The position numbers and the translations under genes were made by a program. Positions 4,944 to 22,946 of a DNA stretch of 24,000 bases are shown one piece after another (the stretch's first letter is position 1; every line of letters starts with the position of its first letter). The stretch is from Solibacillus sp. CAU 1738. GTDB taxonomy: Bacteria > Bacillota > Bacilli > Bacillales_A > Planococcaceae. The stretch is taken from NCBI RefSeq assembly GCF_039888725.1, contig NZ_JBDQQN010000002.1, forward strand, positions 578,024-602,023. Reading direction: 5' to 3'. Under the pieces are notes generated by a model. That model made no database searches and was not told where the DNA came from. It worked only from the letters and a program-made list of their open reading frames with translations.

Positions 4944-4997
4944 CCTCCTACTCCATATTAGAGCAAAAGTCATACAAATACACTAATGTTTTACTAT
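4944..4997 (-). repeat. Leader/SD repeat, type I (copy upstream of gene B)
   Basis: By manual alignment, 50 of 54 positions are identical to 6778-6831. The repeat includes the SD GGAGTRGGAGG. Confidence 0.85.
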
Positions 4998-5043
4998 TTT
5001 ACTATATTTAAAACCACCTCCACCATCATTTGTTTATTTTGTA

Positions 5044-17199: not shown

Positions 17200-17424
17200 T
17201 CAAAGACACATTTTGTGTCCTAAATGGCCAAAAAAAACTACATCTACTGTCGTATCATAATAATCAGCTATTTTTTTTGCTAATTGTAAAGATGGGGTTC
17301 TATCTCCTCTTTCTATAGCCCCAAGCATTTGTGGTGTGATTTTTAAATCAAAAGCTACCTCTGATCTAGATTTATCACCACGAAGATTAATCAACATGTT
17401 CCTCTCTTTAATCGTGGTTTTCAT
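17200..17424 (-). CDS. Cro-like XRE-family HTH regulator
   Basis: 74 aa with SRSEVAFDLKITPQMLGAIERG. It diverges from the cI-like gene across the operator region. Confidence 0.8.
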   Translation of the reverse strand: MKTTIKERNMLINLRGDKSRSEVAFDLKITPQMLGAIERGDRTPSLQLAKKIADYYDTTVDVVFFGHLGHKMCL

Positions 17425-17446
17425 AGTATCGCTCCTTCCTTTTAAA

Positions 17447-17557
17447 GAAACACTTCGTTTCCTTAATTACATAATAATAGAAACACTTCGTTTCTGTCAA
17501 CCGTTTCTAGAAACTTTTTGTTTCTCTTTTAAACCATCAATAGAAACAAATAGTTTC
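17447..17557. promoter_or_regulatory. Immunity switch region with four GAAAC-N5-GTTTC operators and divergent promoters
   Basis: Operators at 17447-17461 and 17480-17494 (both GAAACACTTCGTTTC), 17510-17524 (GAAACTTTTTGTTTC) and 17543-17557 (GAAACAAATAGTTTC). The minus-strand TTGACA (17500-17495) - 18 nt - TATTAT promoter has the second operator in its spacer. A plus-strand TATAAT lies at 17564-17569. Confidence 0.7.
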
Positions 17558-17590
17558 TACCTATATAATTGGATACAAGAGGTGAAAACA

Positions 17591-18013
17591 ATGTTTGGGA
17601 AAATTTTAGCTAAATTACGTAAAGAAAGAAAAATGAGTCAATATGATTTAGCGGAAAAAATGGGTTTCTCGAGAGGTCAGCTAGCTAACTACGAACAAGG
17701 CACACGACAACCAGACTTTGACACACTGCAAAAGTTAGCTGATTATTTCGATGTATCCGTTGATTATTTGTTAGGAAGAGAGATAATAAATACCGCCAAA
17801 AATAATGAAATTTCTAAGGAAGAACGAGACATTGCAAAACGTTTAAAACAATTTGAAGAAGAAATTGAAAATAGTGGAGACTTAGCTTTTAACGGTGAAC
17901 CAATGTCACAAGAAGCTAAAGAATCTCTTTTAGAATCAATGGCATTATTATTTAGACAAACTCAACGTATCAATAGGAAATATACACCTAAGAAGTATCG
18001 AGAGGATGAATAA
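17591..18013 (+). CDS. cI-like / ImmR-like XRE-family repressor, 140 aa
   Basis: The ATG at 17591 follows AGAGGTG. HTH is MSQYDLAEKMGFSRGQLANYEQG. The ORF-track start at 17336 reads through the operator region and is rejected. Confidence 0.85.
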   Translation: MFGKILAKLRKERKMSQYDLAEKMGFSRGQLANYEQGTRQPDFDTLQKLADYFDVSVDYLLGREIINTAKNNEISKEERDIAKRLKQFEEEIENSGDLAFNGEPMSQEAKESLLESMALLFRQTQRINRKYTPKKYREDE

Positions 18014-18031: not shown

Positions 18032-18913
18032 GTGAAAGGTAGTAGAAACGAGGGCCTGAAAAATGGTTTTAATATGTTCTTTTCTCCATATTTAGAAGGT
18101 TACAGAAACCGTGTGAATGAATTATATGCAGATGAGTATAGAGAAAATAGAGAGTCGTTCTTTTTTATGAACCCTGTAAAATTACATGTACTACTAAATG
18201 ATATGAATACTCATTTGGTATTATCAGAAAATGACGTGGATCAAATAGGTTTTATCGATTGTAAAGATATGCAGCATGAAGAATTTTCTGTATTACGTAA
18301 AGGTCCAGAAAAATTAAAGATTGAGTTTATTAAGTCTGAATTTAGTATTACAGAATATATAACAGACTTTCATTATTATGATTTAGGTGAATATGCAGGT
18401 CTAATGTTTAATGAAGTGAATCACGGTGGGTTAATTGAACGGAGCAAAGTATGGGGAATTGAAAATGCTGATTCACACGAGATGAACTATCGTTTTAATA
18501 AAGCTTTACAATCAGCTTTTGAACCTTCGACATTATTATCAGATCTTAATACTGATTTAATCATTGAGAAAGTTAACACCCCCTCATTCGCATATGAATT
18601 CGGGGAATCCGTTAAGGCTTATAATGCAGGTATTTATTTAGCTGCTTCTACTACTGGTGGGATTGCATTAGAAAATATTTTACGTATTTTAATTAAAAAC
18701 AAAACCAGTGAACATCTACCGAAAGACACATATATTAAAGATTCATTAGCTGTTTTAAAACGAAATCATGTACTATCAAATCGACTAGCTGCGTCAGTAA
18801 GTAATTTAAGAGACATTAGGAATAGTAATTCGCATACTAATGAAGATCCAGTTCGTAAAACTACTGTAGATCATCTATATGCAACAATTGAAGATTTAGC
18901 GATGCTCCTGTAA
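18032..18913 (+). CDS. Hypothetical protein, 293 aa, with a C-terminal HEPN/DUF4145-like domain
   Basis: GTG start 6 nt after TAGGGGGA. The last roughly 100 aa follow the DUF4145/HEPN template (AYNAGIYLAASTTGGIALENILR...LSNRLAASVSNLRDIRNSNSHTNE...VDHLYATIEDL) and include an Rx4H motif (RNSNSH). I do not recognise the N-terminal 190 aa. Confidence 0.6.
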   Translation: MKGSRNEGLKNGFNMFFSPYLEGYRNRVNELYADEYRENRESFFFMNPVKLHVLLNDMNTHLVLSENDVDQIGFIDCKDMQHEEFSVLRKGPEKLKIEFIKSEFSITEYITDFHYYDLGEYAGLMFNEVNHGGLIERSKVWGIENADSHEMNYRFNKALQSAFEPSTLLSDLNTDLIIEKVNTPSFAYEFGESVKAYNAGIYLAASTTGGIALENILRILIKNKTSEHLPKDTYIKDSLAVLKRNHVLSNRLAASVSNLRDIRNSNSHTNEDPVRKTTVDHLYATIEDLAMLL

Positions 18914-19072
18914 CAATTCAAATTGAGCGTGTAATTTACGTGTAATAGCTTCGGCTTCATTACCGCAATCTTCGCTACACCAAATAGCACGTTGTAAATC
19001 TTCAATGATTGCAAATATCTCTTCTTTACTTAATGTAATGTTAATAAAATCTGTACCATTTACAATTATCAC
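18896..19072 (-). CDS. Hypothetical small acidic protein, about 58 aa
   Basis: Convergent with the 293-aa gene and overlapping its 3' end by 18 nt. The GTG at 19072 lies 5 nt after AAGGAG. The GTG at 19078 abuts the SD. Confidence 0.4.
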   Translation of the reverse strand: MIIVNGTDFINITLSKEEIFAIIEDLQRAIWCSEDCGNEAEAITRKLHAQFELLQEHR

Positions 19073-19153
19073 ATTCACTCCTTAAATTGTTTATATATTT
19101 ATTTTAATAGAATGTTTGTGATAAAGCACCCAAAACAGAAACGAAGTGATTGC

Positions 19154-19594
19154 ATGTGGATTAGAGAGAGAGTAAAGCAACTTACATCTAAATACAATAC
19201 GAGTTGTCCATATCAATTAGCTAAAAGTTTAAAAATACACGTTTTACAACATGATTTACATCCAGAGATTCGAGGTTACTACAAATATGAACGCCGAAAT
19301 AGGTTTATCGTAATAAATAGTAATCTTGATGAAAATTATCAGCGATTTGTTTGCGCACACGAACTCGGACATGCTGTGATGCATAAAAAAGTGAATACAC
19401 CGTTTATGCGCCAAAATACATTTTTATCTGTTGATCGAATTGAACGAGAAGCAAACAAATTCGCTGCTGAACTATTAATCTCCGACGCATGTTTAAAAGA
19501 TTGTATTTTCGAACAAATGACAACCTATGACATAGCTTCATTACATAATGTACCACTAGAGCTGGTAGAACTGAAATGTAAGGGGCTATTTTAA
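19154..19594 (+). CDS. immA: ImmA/IrrE-family zinc metalloprotease (anti-repressor protease)
   Basis: HELGHAVMH (HExxH), about 146-160 aa, directly upstream of the integrase as in ImmR-ImmA-Int modules. Start is the ATG at 19154 or 19112; neither has a strong SD. Confidence 0.85.
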   Translation: MWIRERVKQLTSKYNTSCPYQLAKSLKIHVLQHDLHPEIRGYYKYERRNRFIVINSNLDENYQRFVCAHELGHAVMHKKVNTPFMRQNTFLSVDRIEREANKFAAELLISDACLKDCIFEQMTTYDIASLHNVPLELVELKCKGLF

Positions 19595-19640: not shown

Positions 19641-20849
19641 TTGATTATGGGATATTTCGTTAAATTAGAAAAAAATAAATACAAACTTATTGCTGATTTA
19701 GGGTACAGAGGAAATAAGCGTATTCGCAAAACACGTAGGGTTGAAGCTAAAAATGATCGTGAAGCCCAGCGACTTCTAGTATTATTTGAAGAAGAAGTTT
19801 TACAGGATAAAGATGTTCATTTTACAAACATAGATAACACTACGTTAGCTAATTTTTATCCAAAGTGGCGCGATAATCATGCTAAACAGTTTTACTCACC
19901 AAAAACATTTCAAAATTACTGTTCGTATATTGAAAATCGAATTTTACCTATGTTTGGCGAATTTAAAATTAAAGATATTAAAAAGGTTGATGTTGTATTT
20001 TTTGTTGCGGATCTGTCGAAAAACGGTAGACGTACAGATAACAAACGTTCTGATGGTCCAGATGGTAAACTAAGTGCTTCATCCATCAGGAATATTCATA
20101 AAGCCTTCTCAAACATGATGAATACCGCTTTTGAATGGAATATGATTACTGAAAATCCTTGTATTGGTGTTAGGTTACCAAAAGTTATTACTCCGGAAGG
20201 ACAAGCTTATTCTGAGTCAGAGGTTACTCAGTTGCTCGAAAGGTTGCAGCAAAGAGCAAAACCAATAAAAAGACTAATTGTTCAATTCGCTATTGTTAGT
20301 GGTGCACGTTTAGGTGAAATAGCAGCTCTAGAGTTAAAACATTTGGATGCAGAAAATAATTCTGTGCTTATTGAACAAACGATATCGACCATAGTTAGTG
20401 ATAACAAAGAAGAACGGCAATTTTTAAAAGAAACCAAAGGTAAAAAGAAACGTAGAGTTACTATTCCTCATTATGTTATGGAAGATTTATTATTACTAGC
20501 TAAAGTAAAAAAGTCTCAACTTGATGAAATTGGGGATGAACGAGAATGGAAAGGACATGTATTTTTATTCTCTAGTGATTTAGGTAAGCCTTATAACGTT
20601 TCCTCTCTTAGTGCATGGTGGCGAAAATTCATAAGAAAAAACCCTGATTTATCACAGATACGATTCCATGAATTACGTCACACATCAGCATCACTTTTAA
20701 TACATGCTGGCGAGCACCCGAGAGTTATTCAAGGACGACTTGGCCACGCAGATATAAAAATGACAATGAACACATACGGTCATTTATTACCTGAATCAGA
20801 TCAACGCGCTAGTTCGTATTTCGATAAATTTTTTGAAAAAGAAGAGTGA
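19641..20849 (+). CDS. int: Tyrosine recombinase / phage integrase
   Basis: 402 aa. The C-terminal catalytic pattern is ARLGEI...HELRHTSASLL...LGHADIKMTMNTYGHL. SD AGGAGA. Start is TTG 19641 or ATG 19647. Confidence 0.9.
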   Translation: MIMGYFVKLEKNKYKLIADLGYRGNKRIRKTRRVEAKNDREAQRLLVLFEEEVLQDKDVHFTNIDNTTLANFYPKWRDNHAKQFYSPKTFQNYCSYIENRILPMFGEFKIKDIKKVDVVFFVADLSKNGRRTDNKRSDGPDGKLSASSIRNIHKAFSNMMNTAFEWNMITENPCIGVRLPKVITPEGQAYSESEVTQLLERLQQRAKPIKRLIVQFAIVSGARLGEIAALELKHLDAENNSVLIEQTISTIVSDNKEERQFLKETKGKKKRRVTIPHYVMEDLLLLAKVKKSQLDEIGDEREWKGHVFLFSSDLGKPYNVSSLSAWWRKFIRKNPDLSQIRFHELRHTSASLLIHAGEHPRVIQGRLGHADIKMTMNTYGHLLPESDQRASSYFDKFFEKEE

Positions 20850-20964: not shown

Positions 20965-21399
20965 CTAAGAACAACTTCCTGGGACACTATTTCTAATTTT
21001 CGAGCCTGTTTCACCCATCAACACATCTCCGCCAGTGGATTCAATAATTTCGCTCGTTACTGAATTCGCAATCGCATTTGATACAAGCTGCAGCAAATCA
21101 TTTACATCCATTTGTGATTGTTTGAATTGTTGAACAACTGGTACTGCATCGATTTCATCTTCAATATTGGCAATTTTACCTTCGATCATTTTAAGCGCTT
21201 TTTCTTTACCTAAATGTTGGAAGTTAACTGCTTGCTTTTGTAAAGTTTTTAATGAAGCAATTTTTTCACGTATATTTTGGTTATCATTAATTTGCTCTTC
21301 AGCCTTTTTGAAAAACTCAACTTCTTCTGTATTTGCAATCATATGCGCGATCTCTTTTGCTTTTTCAATAATTTCGTCTTTAGTATATAATTTCGTCAT
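20965..21399 (-). CDS. ricA: YmcA/RicA (YlbF/YmcA-family regulatory protein)
   Basis: 144 aa immediately downstream of miaB, as in B. subtilis ymcB-ymcA. The sequence closely resembles my recollection of YmcA (…FFKKAEEQIN…LQKQAVN…GETGSK…SCS). Confidence 0.8.
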   Translation of the reverse strand: MTKLYTKDEIIEKAKEIAHMIANTEEVEFFKKAEEQINDNQNIREKIASLKTLQKQAVNFQHLGKEKALKMIEGKIANIEDEIDAVPVVQQFKQSQMDVNDLLQLVSNAIANSVTSEIIESTGGDVLMGETGSKIRNSVPGSCS

Positions 21400-21413
21400 T
21401 AAACTTGCACCCC

Positions 21414-22946
21414 TTATCGTTTTACTATTTCTAAAAACTCTCCTCTTAATGAGTAGCTTTTCGCTTCTAATACTTTCACTTTCACTATTTCCCCTACTAA
21501 TTCAACGGGACCTTCAAAGTTTACTAATTTATTTTTACGAGTATAGCCAGCTAGCACATCATCACGTTTTTTACTGCTACCTTCTACAAGAACTTCCACT
21601 ACTTCACCTTCGAGCTTTTTCAACGCAGCCTTTGAATACTCTCCTACAACTGCATTTAATCGGTGTAAACGTTCTTTTTTTACATCTTCCGGTACATTAT
21701 CAACCATTTTTGCAGCTGGTGTTCCTTCGCGCGGTGAGTAAATATATGTGAATGCCATTTCAAAGCCTACTTTACGATATAAATCAAGCGTTTCCTGGAA
21801 CTGCTCTTCTGTTTCGTTCGGATAACCAACGATAATATCTGTCGTTAAAGCTACATCTGGTATAGCAGCTTTAATTCGCGCCACTAAATCAAGGAAATGC
21901 TCGCGTGTATATTTTCGTGCCATAATTTTTAGAACTTCATTTGAACCTGATTGTACAGGTAAGTGTATATGTTCTAATAAGTTACCGCCTTTTGCGAGTA
22001 CTTTGATTAAATGATCATCAAAATCGCGAGGGTGGCTCGTTGTGAAACGTATGCGTGGAATATCGATTTTACTCAACTCGTCCATTAAATCACCAAGGCG
22101 ATATTCTATATCAGTGAAATCTTTTCCGTATGCGTTTACATTTTGACCTAACAGCATAATTTCTTGATAACCTTGAGCTGCTAATTCACGTACCTCTGCG
22201 ATAATTTCTTCTGGGCGACGAGAGCGCTCCTTACCACGTGTATATGGTACGATACAGTACGTGCAAAACTTGTCACAGCCATACATAATATTAACCCAAG
22301 CTTTAATGGAACCAAGTCGCTGCTTCGGAAGGTTTTCAATTACATCCCCTTCTTTTGACCATACTTCGATTACCATTTCTTTTGACATATATGCTTCTTT
22401 TAAAATATTTGGTAGACGGTGAATATTATGAGTACCAAAAATCATATCTACATGTGGATATTTTTTCAAAATCTTATTAACTACCGACTCTTCTTGGGAC
22501 ATGCAGCCACAAACGCCAATTATCATTTCAGGATTTTTTCGTTTATATTTCACGAGGAAGCCTAGTTCACCAAATACTTTGTTTTCCGCATTTTCACGAA
22601 TGGCACATGTATTTAGGAGCACAACATCAGCTTTTTCAATTTCTTCAGTCGGTTCATAGCCAAGCTGCATGAAAATTCCAGCCATTACTTCCGTATCGTG
22701 CTCATTCATTTGACAACCATACGTTCGAATATAAAACTTGCGACCTTCACCCATTTTTAAAAACTGTTCATCAACTGCGAAATCTTTATGGTACTTCACT
22801 TCTTCTTTCCCACGTTTTTTCGCATCTTTTAATGAAGGAGCAGTAAATACTTTTTCGAAATATTTACTGTAATCTTTTTCAGTTTTATTATTAGAAGGTT
22901 TTGGTTGATTAACTTGCGCGCTCGCCAGTCGTTGTTCCTCATTCAT
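21414..22946 (-). CDS. miaB: tRNA-i6A37 methylthiotransferase MiaB
   Basis: 510 aa. N-terminal [13 protein letters not shown], radical-SAM CDKFCTYC and a C-terminal TRAM-like end. Conserved synteny with ymcA. Confidence 0.95.

What the first reader, a model, noticed from the sequence alone, without database searches (positions are those of the whole stretch)
18032..19078. HEPN/DUF4145-like protein and a small convergent gene inserted between the repressor and ImmA
In ImmR-ImmA-Int modules the repressor and protease genes are normally adjacent. Here a visibly AT-rich 1.05-kb insert separates them. It encodes a 293-aa protein whose last roughly 100 residues follow the DUF4145/HEPN template. That template is a helical pair with AYNAGIYLAAS...ALENILR, then LSNRLAASVSNLRDIRNSNSHTNE containing the Rx4H catalytic signature, then a closing helix. 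I do not recognise the N-terminal 190 aa, which could be a sensor. A 58-60-aa acidic protein is encoded convergently and overlaps the 3' end by 18 nt. HEPN domains are established RNase effectors in Abi and toxin-antitoxin systems. Co-orientation with the repressor gene also favours expression in the lysogen. Together these make it a candidate prophage-encoded abortive-infection gene, possibly with a small partner or antisense control.
Basis: partly seen in the sequence, partly recalled or inferred. Interest (0 to 1): 0.7.

Follow-up and report, generated by a model that had tools for sequence, protein, structure and literature searches.

The report
Prophage Tha/Ith-type HEPN defence cassette
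Between the repressor and ImmA genes of a Solibacillus prophage lies a two-gene cassette homologous to the Tha/Ith system of Staphylococcus aureus phages: an RNA-cutting defence protein plus a small antisense-encoded inhibitor thought to switch it off when the prophage itself awakens, so this is a new member of a system described in 2024, not a new kind.

Summary
A 293-aa ORF (18032-18913, +) has an invariant RNSNSH (Rx4H) motif. A convergent small acidic ORF overlaps its 3' end by 18 nt; its most likely start gives 58 aa (18896-19072, -). The region is barely more AT-rich than its neighbours.

The large protein is a full-length homologue of Tha, the tail-activated HEPN anti-phage RNase of S. 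aureus prophages (Rostol 2024, PMC11087260):
- It hits phrog_2039 (4e-14), the family that holds Tha-2.
- A profile built only from its close relatives retrieves Tha-2 and Tha-1 relatives from 1.84 billion proteins.
- hhalign gives 99.9% probability against Tha-2 and 98.9% against Tha-1, over both domains.
- Its R263/H268 align with the R265/H270 motif of Tha-1; the H270A mutant lost defence.

The gene layout matches 80alpha and phiNM2: repressor, then tha, then a small overlapping antisense gene (ith, once annotated xis), then integrase.

In all 12 Bacillales relatives examined the small ORF accompanies the HEPN gene. It is under purifying selection (dN/dS 0.07-0.30) and tracks the HEPN half, not the N-terminal half. 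The cassette also sits at other places in lysogeny modules.

Verdict: a new member of a known kind.

The parts
17446..17558 (.). Four operator-like palindromes AGAAAC-N5-GTTTCT, spaced 33/30/33 nt, between the divergent cro-like and repressor genes. This is the presumed switch region that would drive the repressor-tha operon.
   Evidence: three exact copies and one with 1 mismatch. That the repressor binds here is inferred.
17594..18013 (+). ImmR/Xre-type repressor gene (HTH_3). It lies directly upstream of the tha-like gene and in the same orientation.
   Evidence: HTH_3, E 1.5e-18. The long ORF from 17336 reads through the operator region; the start at ATG 17594 is inferred from the sequence.
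18032..18913 (+). tha-like gene, 293 aa. Family-specific alpha/beta N-terminal half plus a C-terminal HEPN (DUF4145-type) RNase domain.
18032..18550 (+). N-terminal half (about residues 1-173). Candidate trigger-sensing domain; variable, and exchanged among relatives independently of the C-terminal half.
   Evidence: AF2 blocks have pLDDT of about 81-98 over most of this half, with a dip to 66 at residues 161-170. No significant fold match. N versus C identity is discordant. [quoted passage not shown] The sensor role is inferred.
18551..18910 (+). HEPN domain (about residues 174-293).
   Evidence: Foldseek top hits are HepT, AF_0298, TT1696, Csm6, the AbiA HEPN domain and sacsin. DUF4145 is hit by 14 of 22 family members.
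18818..18835 (+). Codons for R263-N-S-N-S-H268, the Rx4H catalytic motif.
   Evidence: Invariant R, N and H. Conserved family-wide. Aligns with R265NSIMH270 of Tha-1, where H270A abolishes defence (PMC11087260).
18896..19072 (-). ith-like small gene, 58 aa, pI 4.6 (an alternative GTG at 19078 gives 60 aa). Candidate cognate inhibitor of the HEPN protein.
18896..18913 (.). 18-nt convergent overlap of the 3' ends of the two genes. The overlap is 18-48 nt in the Bacillales relatives, 64 nt in 80alpha and 21 nt in phiNM2.
19073..19153 (.). 81-nt AT-rich spacer between the small-gene start and the probable immA start. The small gene's own promoter would have to lie here or within the 5' end of immA; none was identified.
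   Evidence: Promoter-like matches are not above chance.
19154..19594 (+). ImmA/IrrE metalloprotease gene (Peptidase_M78); the ORF is open from 19112.
   Evidence: E 8e-26. Start inferred from the conserved GAAAYGAAGTGATTGMATGTGG region and from homologues that begin MW.
19641..20849 (+). Tyrosine integrase gene at the end of the prophage, next to host ymcA-like and miaB-like genes.
   Evidence: The names of the host genes rest on my own knowledge of Bacillus gene order and of the translations.

Best explanation
The 1.05-kb segment is a Tha/Ith-type prophage defence cassette.

Shown here by sequence and structure comparison:
- The 293-aa protein is a full-length homologue of Tha-1/Tha-2. It has a family-specific N-terminal half and a C-terminal HEPN domain with the catalytic Rx4H motif.
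- It sits immediately downstream of the repressor gene, in the same orientation.
- It is always accompanied by a small acidic protein gene that converges on it and overlaps its 3' end.

Inferred from experiments on the staphylococcal homologues (PMC11087260):
- In the lysogen the gene is transcribed with the repressor, and the protein waits in an inactive state.
- A structural protein of an infecting phage (minor tail proteins in S. aureus) activates it through the N-terminal half.
- The HEPN domain then degrades RNA non-specifically and stops the infected cell, an abortive-infection-like outcome.
- The small antisense gene encodes the cognate inhibitor. Strong repressor-operon transcription running head-on into its weak promoter keeps it low in the lysogen.
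- When the repressor operon shuts off on induction, the inhibitor rises and protects the prophage's own lytic cycle from autoimmunity. It would also let the phage infect cells carrying the same Tha type.

New here:
- The cassette occurs outside Staphylococcaceae, embedded in an ImmR-ImmA-Int module.
- The inhibitor's sequence tracks the HEPN half, which suggests it acts on that half.
For: Homology to Tha:
- The window protein hits phrog_2039 at 4.1e-14 over its full length. Tha-2 of phiNM2 is a member of phrog_2039 at 4e-162.
- An hmmsearch with a profile of only the 22 close relatives (A1) against 1.84e9 proteins found P0064 (6e-16) and P0087 (8e-10), as well as P0085 and P0100. P0064 is 59% and P0087 98% identical to Tha-2. 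P0085 and P0100 match Tha-1 at 1e-32 to 1e-38.
- hhalign of the family profile gives 99.94% probability and E 2e-36 over 288 columns against Tha-2. It gives 98.95% and E 1e-17 over 252 columns against Tha-1.
- BLASTP against Tha-1 gives E 2e-6 in a collinear alignment, with RNSNSH aligned to RNSIMH. BLASTP against Tha-2 gives 2e-8.

HEPN fold:
- The AF2 model has pLDDT 88, and all top Foldseek PDB hits are HEPN proteins.
- DUF4145 is hit by 14 of 22 members.

Same gene layout:
- 80alpha: cI, tha-1 and ith-1 with a 64-nt overlap, then int.
- phiNM2: cI, tha-2 and ith-2 with a 21-nt overlap, then int.
- S. pseudintermedius and Mammaliicoccus phages have the same layout.

The small gene:
- It is present in 12 of 12 prophage-type loci, always acidic, with dN/dS 0.07-0.30.
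- It shares an N-terminal [LF][ST]xx[ED]IxxI motif with Ith-1 and Ith-2.
- Its identity correlates with the HEPN half (rho 0.63) and not with the N-terminal half (rho -0.08).

Defence context:
- The cassette sits next to an Ltp lipoprotein gene in L012.
- A distant relative lies next to Hachiman HamA/HamB genes.
Against: - Nothing was measured for this locus: not expression, RNase activity, toxicity, inhibition or trigger.
- Homology of the small protein to Ith is not established. hhalign gives E 0.017 and 0.1 against the single Ith sequences, and E 0.0014 with probability 18% profile against profile. No PHROG or Pfam family is shared.
- No promoter for the small gene could be identified.
- The correlation between small protein and HEPN half could be due to physical linkage alone, because the genes overlap.
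- Pairwise identity to Tha is low (27%), so the trigger need not be a tail protein.
- In one relative (L004/L005) the small gene has lost its start codon while the tha-like ORF stays intact. The partner may therefore not always be essential.
Confidence: 0.8

Rival explanations
1. A conventional toxin-antitoxin addiction module. The HEPN protein would be an intrinsically active toxin, and the small acidic protein its labile antitoxin. Its role would be to stabilise the prophage rather than to sense incoming phages.
For: - The small acidic partner is always present in the prophage clade and co-varies with the HEPN half.
- The HEPN fold is closest to HepT toxins.
Against: - The genes are convergent, not co-transcribed as in classical type II modules.
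- In the homologous system Tha-1 alone is tolerated on a plasmid and becomes toxic only with its tail-protein trigger (PMC11087260).
- Distant family members stand alone without any overlapping small ORF.
- The L004 prophage keeps the tha-like ORF although the small gene lacks a start codon.
Confidence: 0.07
2. The small gene is an excisionase, as its staphylococcal counterparts were long annotated. The HEPN gene would then be an unrelated moron that happens to lie beside it.
For: - Ith-1 and Ith-2 fall in PHROGs labelled 'excisionase'.
- The gene lies in the integration/lysogeny module near int.
Against: - Rostol et al. showed that the 80alpha 'xis' is not needed for excision and instead inhibits Tha (PMC11087260).
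- The small protein here is acidic (pI 4.6) and has no Xis/HTH family hit.
- It stays attached to the HEPN gene, overlapping it, whatever the recombinase: tyrosine integrases in most loci and a serine recombinase in L003.
- It also stays attached when several kb of other genes separate it from int.
- Its sequence tracks the HEPN half.
Confidence: 0.03
3. The pair is part of the ImmR/ImmA switch itself, for example a sensor or modulator of repressor cleavage, which would explain its position between the two genes.
For: It lies between repressor and ImmA in most Bacillales loci examined.
Against: - In L009 and Lactobacillus phage JNU_P1 the repressor and ImmA genes are adjacent and the cassette is further downstream.
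- In L012 it lies after ImmA and an Ltp gene.
- In L006 and L018 other genes intervene.
- The staphylococcal homologues sit in cI-type modules with no ImmA annotated in the lysogeny region shown.
- Distant relatives lie in defence islands.
Confidence: 0.03

Closest known systems
Tha-2/Ith-2 of Staphylococcus phage phiNM2 (Rostol et al. 2024, PMC11087260)
   Same: - Same PHROG family, phrog_2039, and full-length profile homology.
- About 300 aa, with the HEPN domain in the C-terminal 110-120 residues and an R-N-x3-H motif.
- The gene lies directly downstream of the repressor gene in the same orientation.
- A 59-aa acidic antisense gene overlaps its 3' end by 21 nt (18 nt here), and the integrase lies beyond it.
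   Different: - Only about 27% identity, and only over the HEPN domain in pairwise BLAST.
- The host is Solibacillus, not Staphylococcus.
- The repressor is an Xre/ImmR type with a separate ImmA protease, and the cassette is inserted between them. phiNM2 has a cI annotated with a peptidase_S24 domain.
- Homology of the small protein to Ith-2 is not demonstrable.
- The trigger is unknown.
Tha-1/Ith-1 of Staphylococcus phage 80alpha / phi11
   Same: - Same architecture: 301 aa, HEPN at 184-296, R265NSIMH270 against R263NSNSH268.
- hhalign probability 98.95% over both halves.
- A convergent overlapping small acidic gene (66 aa, pI 4.1).
[quoted passage not shown]
   Different: - It belongs to a different PHROG, phrog_13276.
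- The overlap is 64 nt.
- Two small genes lie between cI and tha-1.
- The Tha-1 N-terminal half could not be modelled by AlphaFold2 in the paper, whereas most of it is confidently modelled here.
RAZR (PD-T7-4), zinc-finger + DUF4145 HEPN RNase (PMC13017515)
   Same: - DUF4145-type HEPN effector.
- An N-terminal sensing domain activated by a phage structural protein.
- An abortive-infection outcome, with R/H mutants that are inactive.
   Different: - No zinc-finger domain here, and no PADLOC PD-T7-4 hit for any of the 22 members at E <= 0.1.
- RAZR is a single gene without a cognate inhibitor.
HepT-MntA (HEPN-MNT) toxin-antitoxin systems
   Same: These are the best structural matches of the C-terminal domain (7bxo, 6m6u, 5yep). 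They have an Rx4-6H RNase toxin held in check by a cognate partner.
   Different: The partner here is a 58-aa acidic protein with no nucleotidyltransferase domain. The genes are convergent rather than in one operon, and the toxin carries an extra 170-aa N-terminal half.
Lysogeny-module morons of Firmicute prophages, such as Ltp of S. thermophilus phage TP-J34 and Sie2009 of lactococcal phages (own knowledge)
   Same: These are accessory defence genes placed between the repressor and integrase genes and expressed in the lysogen. An Ltp gene sits beside the cassette in L012.
   Different: They act at the membrane to block DNA entry. They are not RNases and have no antisense inhibitor.

Membership tests
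Tha (tail-activated HEPN anti-phage protein) | Sequence homology to Tha-1/Tha-2 over the whole protein | tested here: met
   - phrog_2039 at 4e-14; Tha-2 is in phrog_2039.
- The A1 profile retrieves Tha-2 and Tha-1 relatives.
- hhalign gives 99.94% and 98.95%.
- BLASTP gives 2e-8 and 2e-6.
Tha (tail-activated HEPN anti-phage protein) | About 300 aa, with an N-terminal half lacking any known domain and a C-terminal HEPN domain carrying an ArgX4His motif | tested here: met
   - 293 aa, with HEPN at about 174-293 and R263NSNSH268.
- No family hit confined to the N-terminal half except one spurious PADLOC match.
- No significant fold match for it in the whole-model searches.
Tha (tail-activated HEPN anti-phage protein) | Encoded in the prophage lysogeny module, downstream of the repressor gene in the same orientation (part of the repressor operon) | tested here: met
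   - Position and orientation: it starts 19 nt after the repressor stop, and no terminator-like site lies between.
- Co-transcription itself was not tested.
Tha (tail-activated HEPN anti-phage protein) | Non-specific RNase activity that depends on the HEPN His, and Abi-like phage defence | not testable with these tools
   Needs expression, plaque assays and RNA analysis with R263A/H268A mutants.
Tha (tail-activated HEPN anti-phage protein) | Activation by a minor tail protein of the infecting phage | not testable with these tools
   The tail genes of this prophage lie outside the window, which ends at the portal and terminase genes. Escape-mutant selection would be needed.
Ith (inhibitor of Tha) | Small gene (59-66 aa) antisense to tha, overlapping its 3' end, on the integrase side | tested here: met
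   - 58 aa with an 18-nt overlap.
- Present in 12 of 12 related prophage loci.
- Same layout in 80alpha and phiNM2.
Ith (inhibitor of Tha) | Sequence homology to Ith-1 or Ith-2 | tested here: inconclusive
   - hhalign gives E 0.017 and 0.1 against the single sequences, and E 0.0014 with probability 18% profile against profile.
- There is a shared N-terminal [LF][ST]xx[ED]IxxI motif, similar size and acidity.
- No shared PHROG. Ith-1 and Ith-2 are themselves in different PHROGs.
Ith (inhibitor of Tha) | The protein (not the RNA) inhibits its cognate Tha, and it is expressed from its own weak promoter subject to interference from the repressor operon | not testable with these tools
   - Coding constraint is shown (dN/dS 0.07-0.30).
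- Promoter not identified.
- Inhibition not tested.
HEPN superfamily / Pfam DUF4145 (PF13643) | Helical HEPN fold with the Rx4-6H motif, and a match to the family model | tested here: met
   - The window protein is below the Pfam cut-off (16.3 against 23.1 bits).
- 14 of 22 close relatives match, the best at 3e-5.
- Foldseek top hits are all HEPN, with TM about 0.6 to the targets.
- The motif is invariant.
RAZR / PD-T7-4 | N-terminal Cys4 zinc-ribbon domain fused to DUF4145 | tested here: not met
   There is no zinc-ribbon hit or Cys4 pattern in the N-terminal half, and no PADLOC PD-T7-4 hit.
PD-lambda-5 (ParB/HEPN protein plus Dam-like methyltransferase) | Match to the PD-lambda-5 component models and presence of the partner gene | tested here: not met
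   - The weak PD-Lambda-5_B hit (6e-4) is on the N-terminal half of the window protein only, in 1 of 22 family members.
- PD-lambda-5B is a D12 methyltransferase, and no methyltransferase hit or fold appears here.
HepT-MntA type VII toxin-antitoxin | Adjacent minimal nucleotidyltransferase antitoxin that AMPylates the HEPN toxin | tested here: not met
   No nucleotidyltransferase is among the neighbouring genes scanned: repressor, small ORF, ImmA, integrase and the cro-like gene.
Phage excisionase (Xis) | Small, usually basic DNA-binding protein (HTH/winged helix) working with a specific integrase | tested here: not met
   - pI 4.0-4.9, and no Xis/HTH family hit.
- It is associated with the HEPN gene regardless of recombinase type.
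- That excisionases are usually basic rests on my own knowledge.

The most novel reading that the evidence does not exclude
Tha/Ith may be a modular platform spread across Bacillales prophages, built from two units.

- One unit is the HEPN half together with its overlapping Ith-like gene, which would be inherited and co-evolve as a lock-and-key pair. This would mean the inhibitor binds the HEPN effector half directly.
- The other unit is the N-terminal sensor half, which would be swapped by recombination to change which phage protein is recognised.

In this ImmR-ImmA prophage there is a further possibility. The antisense unit lies between the repressor promoter and immA-int, so head-on transcription could also set the dose of the ImmA anti-repressor protease. 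That would couple the defence on/off switch to the induction threshold.
Probability: 0.3. Interest if true: 0.5.

Novelty: new member of a known kind. Interest (0 to 1): 0.35.

Why it matters
Tha/Ith has been described only in S. aureus phages, as the model case of how a prophage-borne abortive-infection system avoids killing its own phage.

This locus and its relatives show the following:
- The same two-gene design exists in Solibacillus, Lysinibacillus, Ammoniphilus and Peribacillus prophages.
- The design tolerates a different lysis-lysogeny switch (ImmR/ImmA).
- The small partner tracks the HEPN half while the putative sensor half is exchanged.

This gives testable hypotheses about where Ith acts and how specificity evolves. 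It also shows that small antisense genes next to integrases in Firmicute prophages should not be annotated as excisionases by default. For annotation, the family (phrog_2039 and about 100 clusters at 50% identity) can be named.

Tried and rejected
1. PADLOC hit of the N-terminal half to PD-Lambda-5_B (6e-4). PD-lambda-5B is a Dam-like methyltransferase, and the hit occurs in 1 of 22 family members. Judged spurious.

2. An exact 12-mer of the repressor operator (AGAAACGAAGTG) at 19137-19148, upstream of the small gene. It looked like repressor control of the small gene. The surrounding sequence GAAAYGAAGTGATTGMATGTGG is conserved in relatives whose operators differ, and it is the immA ribosome-binding and start region. 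Judged coincidental.

3. Inverted repeat 18876-18898 / 18995-19017, 87% complementary, considered as an RNA structure or terminator. It is found only in the window and weakly in L017. It arises because both proteins encode ...IEDL... on opposite strands.

4. The idea that the small protein mimics the C-terminal helix of the HEPN protein. hhalign finds no relationship.

5. Fold of the small protein. AF2 gives pLDDT of only 67 (a short strand plus two helices), and Foldseek finds nothing significant. A ribbon-helix-helix resemblance is my impression only and is unsupported.

6. The promoter and terminator scan is not above chance.

7. tblastn of the window protein against 50,697 phage genomes found nothing at 1e-3. 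Foldseek against BFVD found nothing, and a PDB sequence search found nothing.

9. The search for related loci with the divergent subfamily alignments failed for lack of conserved stretches.

Full report
**1. Observation**

The window is a prophage of Solibacillus sp. CAU 1738; the 293-aa protein is 100% identical to an NCBI hypothetical protein of that strain. Portal, terminase, HNH, replication, RecT and YqaJ genes lie on the minus strand. At the right end is a plus-strand lysogeny module: an HTH_3 repressor (17594-18013), the finding, a Peptidase_M78 ImmA gene, and a tyrosine integrase.

The 293-aa ORF (18032-18913) and the convergent small ORF (18896-19078) exist as described and overlap by 18 nt. 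The small gene most likely starts at the GTG at 19072, 5 nt after AAGGAG. That gives 58 aa, as NCBI annotates it. The claimed AT-richness is marginal: GC is 0.319 against 0.334 for the rest of the lysogeny module.

**2. The large protein**

Family libraries:
- Pfam gives sub-threshold hits to DUF4145 (E 0.011, residues 195-275) and HEPN_Swt1.
- Of 22 homologues, 14 hit DUF4145 (best 3e-5). Others hit HepT-like, Swt1, Apea or Ymh, all of which are HEPN families.
- DUF4145 is an established HEPN family (PMC3710099).

Conservation and structure:
- In the alignment of 22 homologues the C-terminal half is highly conserved, with invariant R263, N264, H268, T269 and N270. The N-terminal half is variable.
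- An AlphaFold2 model has mean pLDDT 88. The N-terminal half is alpha/beta and the C-terminal domain is helical.
- Foldseek against the PDB returns only HEPN proteins at the top: HepT toxins 7bxo, 6m6u and 5yep; AF_0298; TT1696; Csm6; the AbiA HEPN domain; and sacsin. E-values are modest (0.02-1), but probability is 1.0 and TM to the target is about 0.6.
- No significant match for the N-terminal half appeared in the whole-model searches.

Family size: an exhaustive profile search of 1.84 billion representative proteins finds only 109 clusters, mostly 290-340 aa and matched over their full length. Almost all full-length members keep R[NRH]xxxH.

**3. The small gene and the cassette**

I read the genomic context of 12 prophage-type relatives (28-76% identity in the HEPN half).
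- Every one has a minus-strand small ORF of 55-64 aa that overlaps the 3' end of the HEPN gene by 18-48 nt.
- The products align with each other, are all acidic (pI 4.0-4.9), and evolve under purifying selection (dN/dS 0.07-0.30). This is therefore a protein-coding gene, not just an antisense RNA.
- Its homologues detected by sequence search lie on the same contigs as the HEPN homologues.

The cassette usually sits between the repressor and ImmA genes, but not always.
- In L009 the repressor and ImmA genes abut, and the cassette lies just before the integrase.
- In L012 it follows ImmA and an Ltp lipoprotein gene.
- In L006 and L018 other genes intervene.
- The recombinase beyond the cassette can be a tyrosine integrase or a serine recombinase.

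The pair is therefore a mobile two-gene unit in a moron hotspot of the lysogeny module. It is not an obligate part of the ImmR/ImmA switch.

Pairwise identities show that the small protein tracks the HEPN half (Spearman 0.63) and not the N-terminal half (-0.08). For example, window against L017 gives N-terminal half 17%, C-terminal half 76% and small protein 74%. The N-terminal half has thus been exchanged independently of the unit formed by the HEPN half and the small gene. Two caveats apply: the pairs are not independent, and the small gene is physically linked to the HEPN-coding end.

**4. Identification as Tha/Ith**

A literature search led to Rostol et al. 2024 (PMC11087260). S. aureus prophages encode Tha.
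- Tha-1 is a 301-aa protein with no discernible N-terminal domain and a C-terminal HEPN domain (residues 184-296, R265NSIMH270).
- It is expressed from the cI operon in lysogens.
- It is activated by minor tail proteins of infecting phages.
- It acts as a non-specific RNase, giving Abi-like protection.
[quoted passage not shown] That gene was formerly annotated xis and has its own weak constitutive promoter.
- Head-on transcription from the cI promoter keeps ith low in lysogens. On induction the balance flips, which prevents autoimmunity.

I tested membership directly.
- The 80alpha layout is cI, two small genes, tha-1 (1662-2567) and ith-1 (1525-1725) with a 64-nt overlap, then int.
- The phiNM2 layout is cI, tha-2 and ith-2 with a 21-nt overlap, then int. 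This is the same order as in the window.
- Tha-2 is a member of phrog_2039 (4e-162), the family the window protein hits at 4e-14 over its full length.
- Among the proteins retrieved by the profile built only from the window protein's close relatives, P0087 is 98% and P0064 59% identical to Tha-2. P0100 and P0085 are Tha-1 relatives.
- hhalign of the family profile gives 99.94% probability (E 2e-36, 288 columns) against Tha-2 and 98.95% (E 1e-17, 252 columns) against Tha-1. Both alignments cover the N-terminal half as well. The family profile A6 contains Tha-2-like and Tha-1-like sequences, so the independent evidence is.
- BLASTP against Tha-1 is collinear (residues 93-268 against 95-270, E 2e-6) and aligns RNSNSH with RNSIMH.

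For the small protein, homology to Ith is only suggestive.
- There is a shared N-terminal [LF][ST]xx[ED]IxxI motif. Size (58 aa against 59-66) and acidity (pI 4.6 against 4.1-4.3) are similar.
- Profile-profile comparison gives E 0.0014 but only 18% probability.
- Ith-1 and Ith-2 themselves fall in different PHROGs, so fast divergence is expected.

**5. Mechanism**

Shown here:
- homology of the effector to Tha;
- the HEPN fold and catalytic motif;
- placement next to the repressor gene in the same orientation;
- a conserved, protein-coding, overlapping antisense partner;
- mobility of the cassette.

Inferred by homology:
- expression in the lysogen from the repressor operon;
- activation by a structural protein of the infecting phage through the N-terminal half;
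- non-specific RNA cleavage and abortive infection;
- inhibition by the small protein on induction, aided by transcriptional interference.

Inferred from my own covariation analysis: the inhibitor acts on the HEPN half.

**6. Wider family**

- Among isolated phage genomes, Tha-2 homologues are confined to Staphylococcus and Mammaliicoccus, plus one Lactobacillus phage. The S. pseudintermedius and Mammaliicoccus phages have the same overlapping small gene.
- In Lactobacillus phage JNU_P1 the tha-like gene follows an adjacent regulator-ImmA pair.
- More distant relatives stand alone without an overlapping small ORF. One is in Priestia megaterium, on a contig that also encodes an ArdC-N/Peptidase_M78 protein. 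Another lies beside Hachiman HamA/HamB genes.
- These contexts agree with a defence role for the effector. They also suggest that the inhibitor is an adaptation to residence in a prophage.

**7. Rivals**

- A plain toxin-antitoxin addiction module fits poorly. The genes are convergent, the Tha-1 homologue needs a trigger to become toxic, and relatives exist without a partner.
- An excisionase role for the small gene is contradicted by the 80alpha experiments, by the protein's acidity, and by its fidelity to the HEPN gene whatever the recombinase.
- A role inside the ImmR/ImmA switch is contradicted by the variable position of the cassette.

**8. Verdict**

The system is already known (2024). 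This is a new member in new genera and in a different type of lysogeny switch, with some added inferences about modularity. Interest is moderate to low for a specialist (0.35).

Noticed in passing
window 17446-17558: Four copies of the palindrome AGAAAC-N5-GTTTCT, spaced 33/30/33 nt, fill the divergent cro-like/repressor intergenic region. They are probably the repressor operators. The L011 prophage, whose repressor C-terminus is similar, has the same motif in its intergenic region.
   Followed up: partly
window 17336-18013: The 225-aa ORF listed here is an artefact of an open frame running through the operator region. The real repressor most likely starts at ATG 17594 (MFGKILAKL..., 139 aa), preceded by GAGGTGA.
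   Followed up: partly
window 19112-19175: The immA ORF is open from 19112, but the start is probably ATG 19154 (MWIRER...). The sequence GAAAYGAAGTGATTGMATGTGG around it is conserved in L001, L004, L007, L017 and L018, whose operators differ. It contains an exact 12-mer of this phage's operator, apparently by coincidence.
   Followed up: yes
window 18876-18898 and 18995-19017: A 23-nt inverted repeat (87% complementary) links the 3' end of the tha-like gene with the middle of the small gene. Both encode ...IEDL... on opposite strands. It is seen weakly in L017 and not in the other relatives.
   Followed up: yes
L004 6040-6095 (and L005), Lysinibacillus sp. Bpr_S20: The ith-like gene has lost its ATG: relative to L001 there is a 3-nt and a 1-nt deletion and no in-frame start codon. 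The tha-like ORF is intact. This could be a decaying inhibitor gene in a prophage that no longer needs to induce.
   Followed up: partly
L021/L022 880-6857; L023 3206-4309: Distant family member P0137 lies between a DUF6602 gene and a Hachiman pair (HamA plus DEAD/ResIII helicase). In L023 the convergent neighbour is a 367-aa protein with an RNDVAH motif near its C-terminus and no Pfam hit, possibly another HEPN protein.
   Followed up: partly
L012 3088-3771; L003 6795-8007; L007 4094-7272; L008 6823-10868: The stretch between ImmA and the recombinase gene in related prophages holds other accessory genes: an Ltp lipoprotein with three repeats; DUF6978 with DUF1828/DUF1829; a BRCT protein; and several genes with no hits. 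The region looks like a moron or defence hotspot.
   Followed up: partly
L009 about 4990-5001: The 241-aa 'truncated' homologue P0016 results from a run of N in the assembly. The N-terminal part (…YLKGYRNRVNELY…) is present in the ORF just upstream.
   Followed up: yes
window 20965-22946: The prophage ends next to host genes on the minus strand that look like ymcA/ricA and miaB (my reading of the translations). attL, attR and the core sequence were not sought.
   Followed up: no
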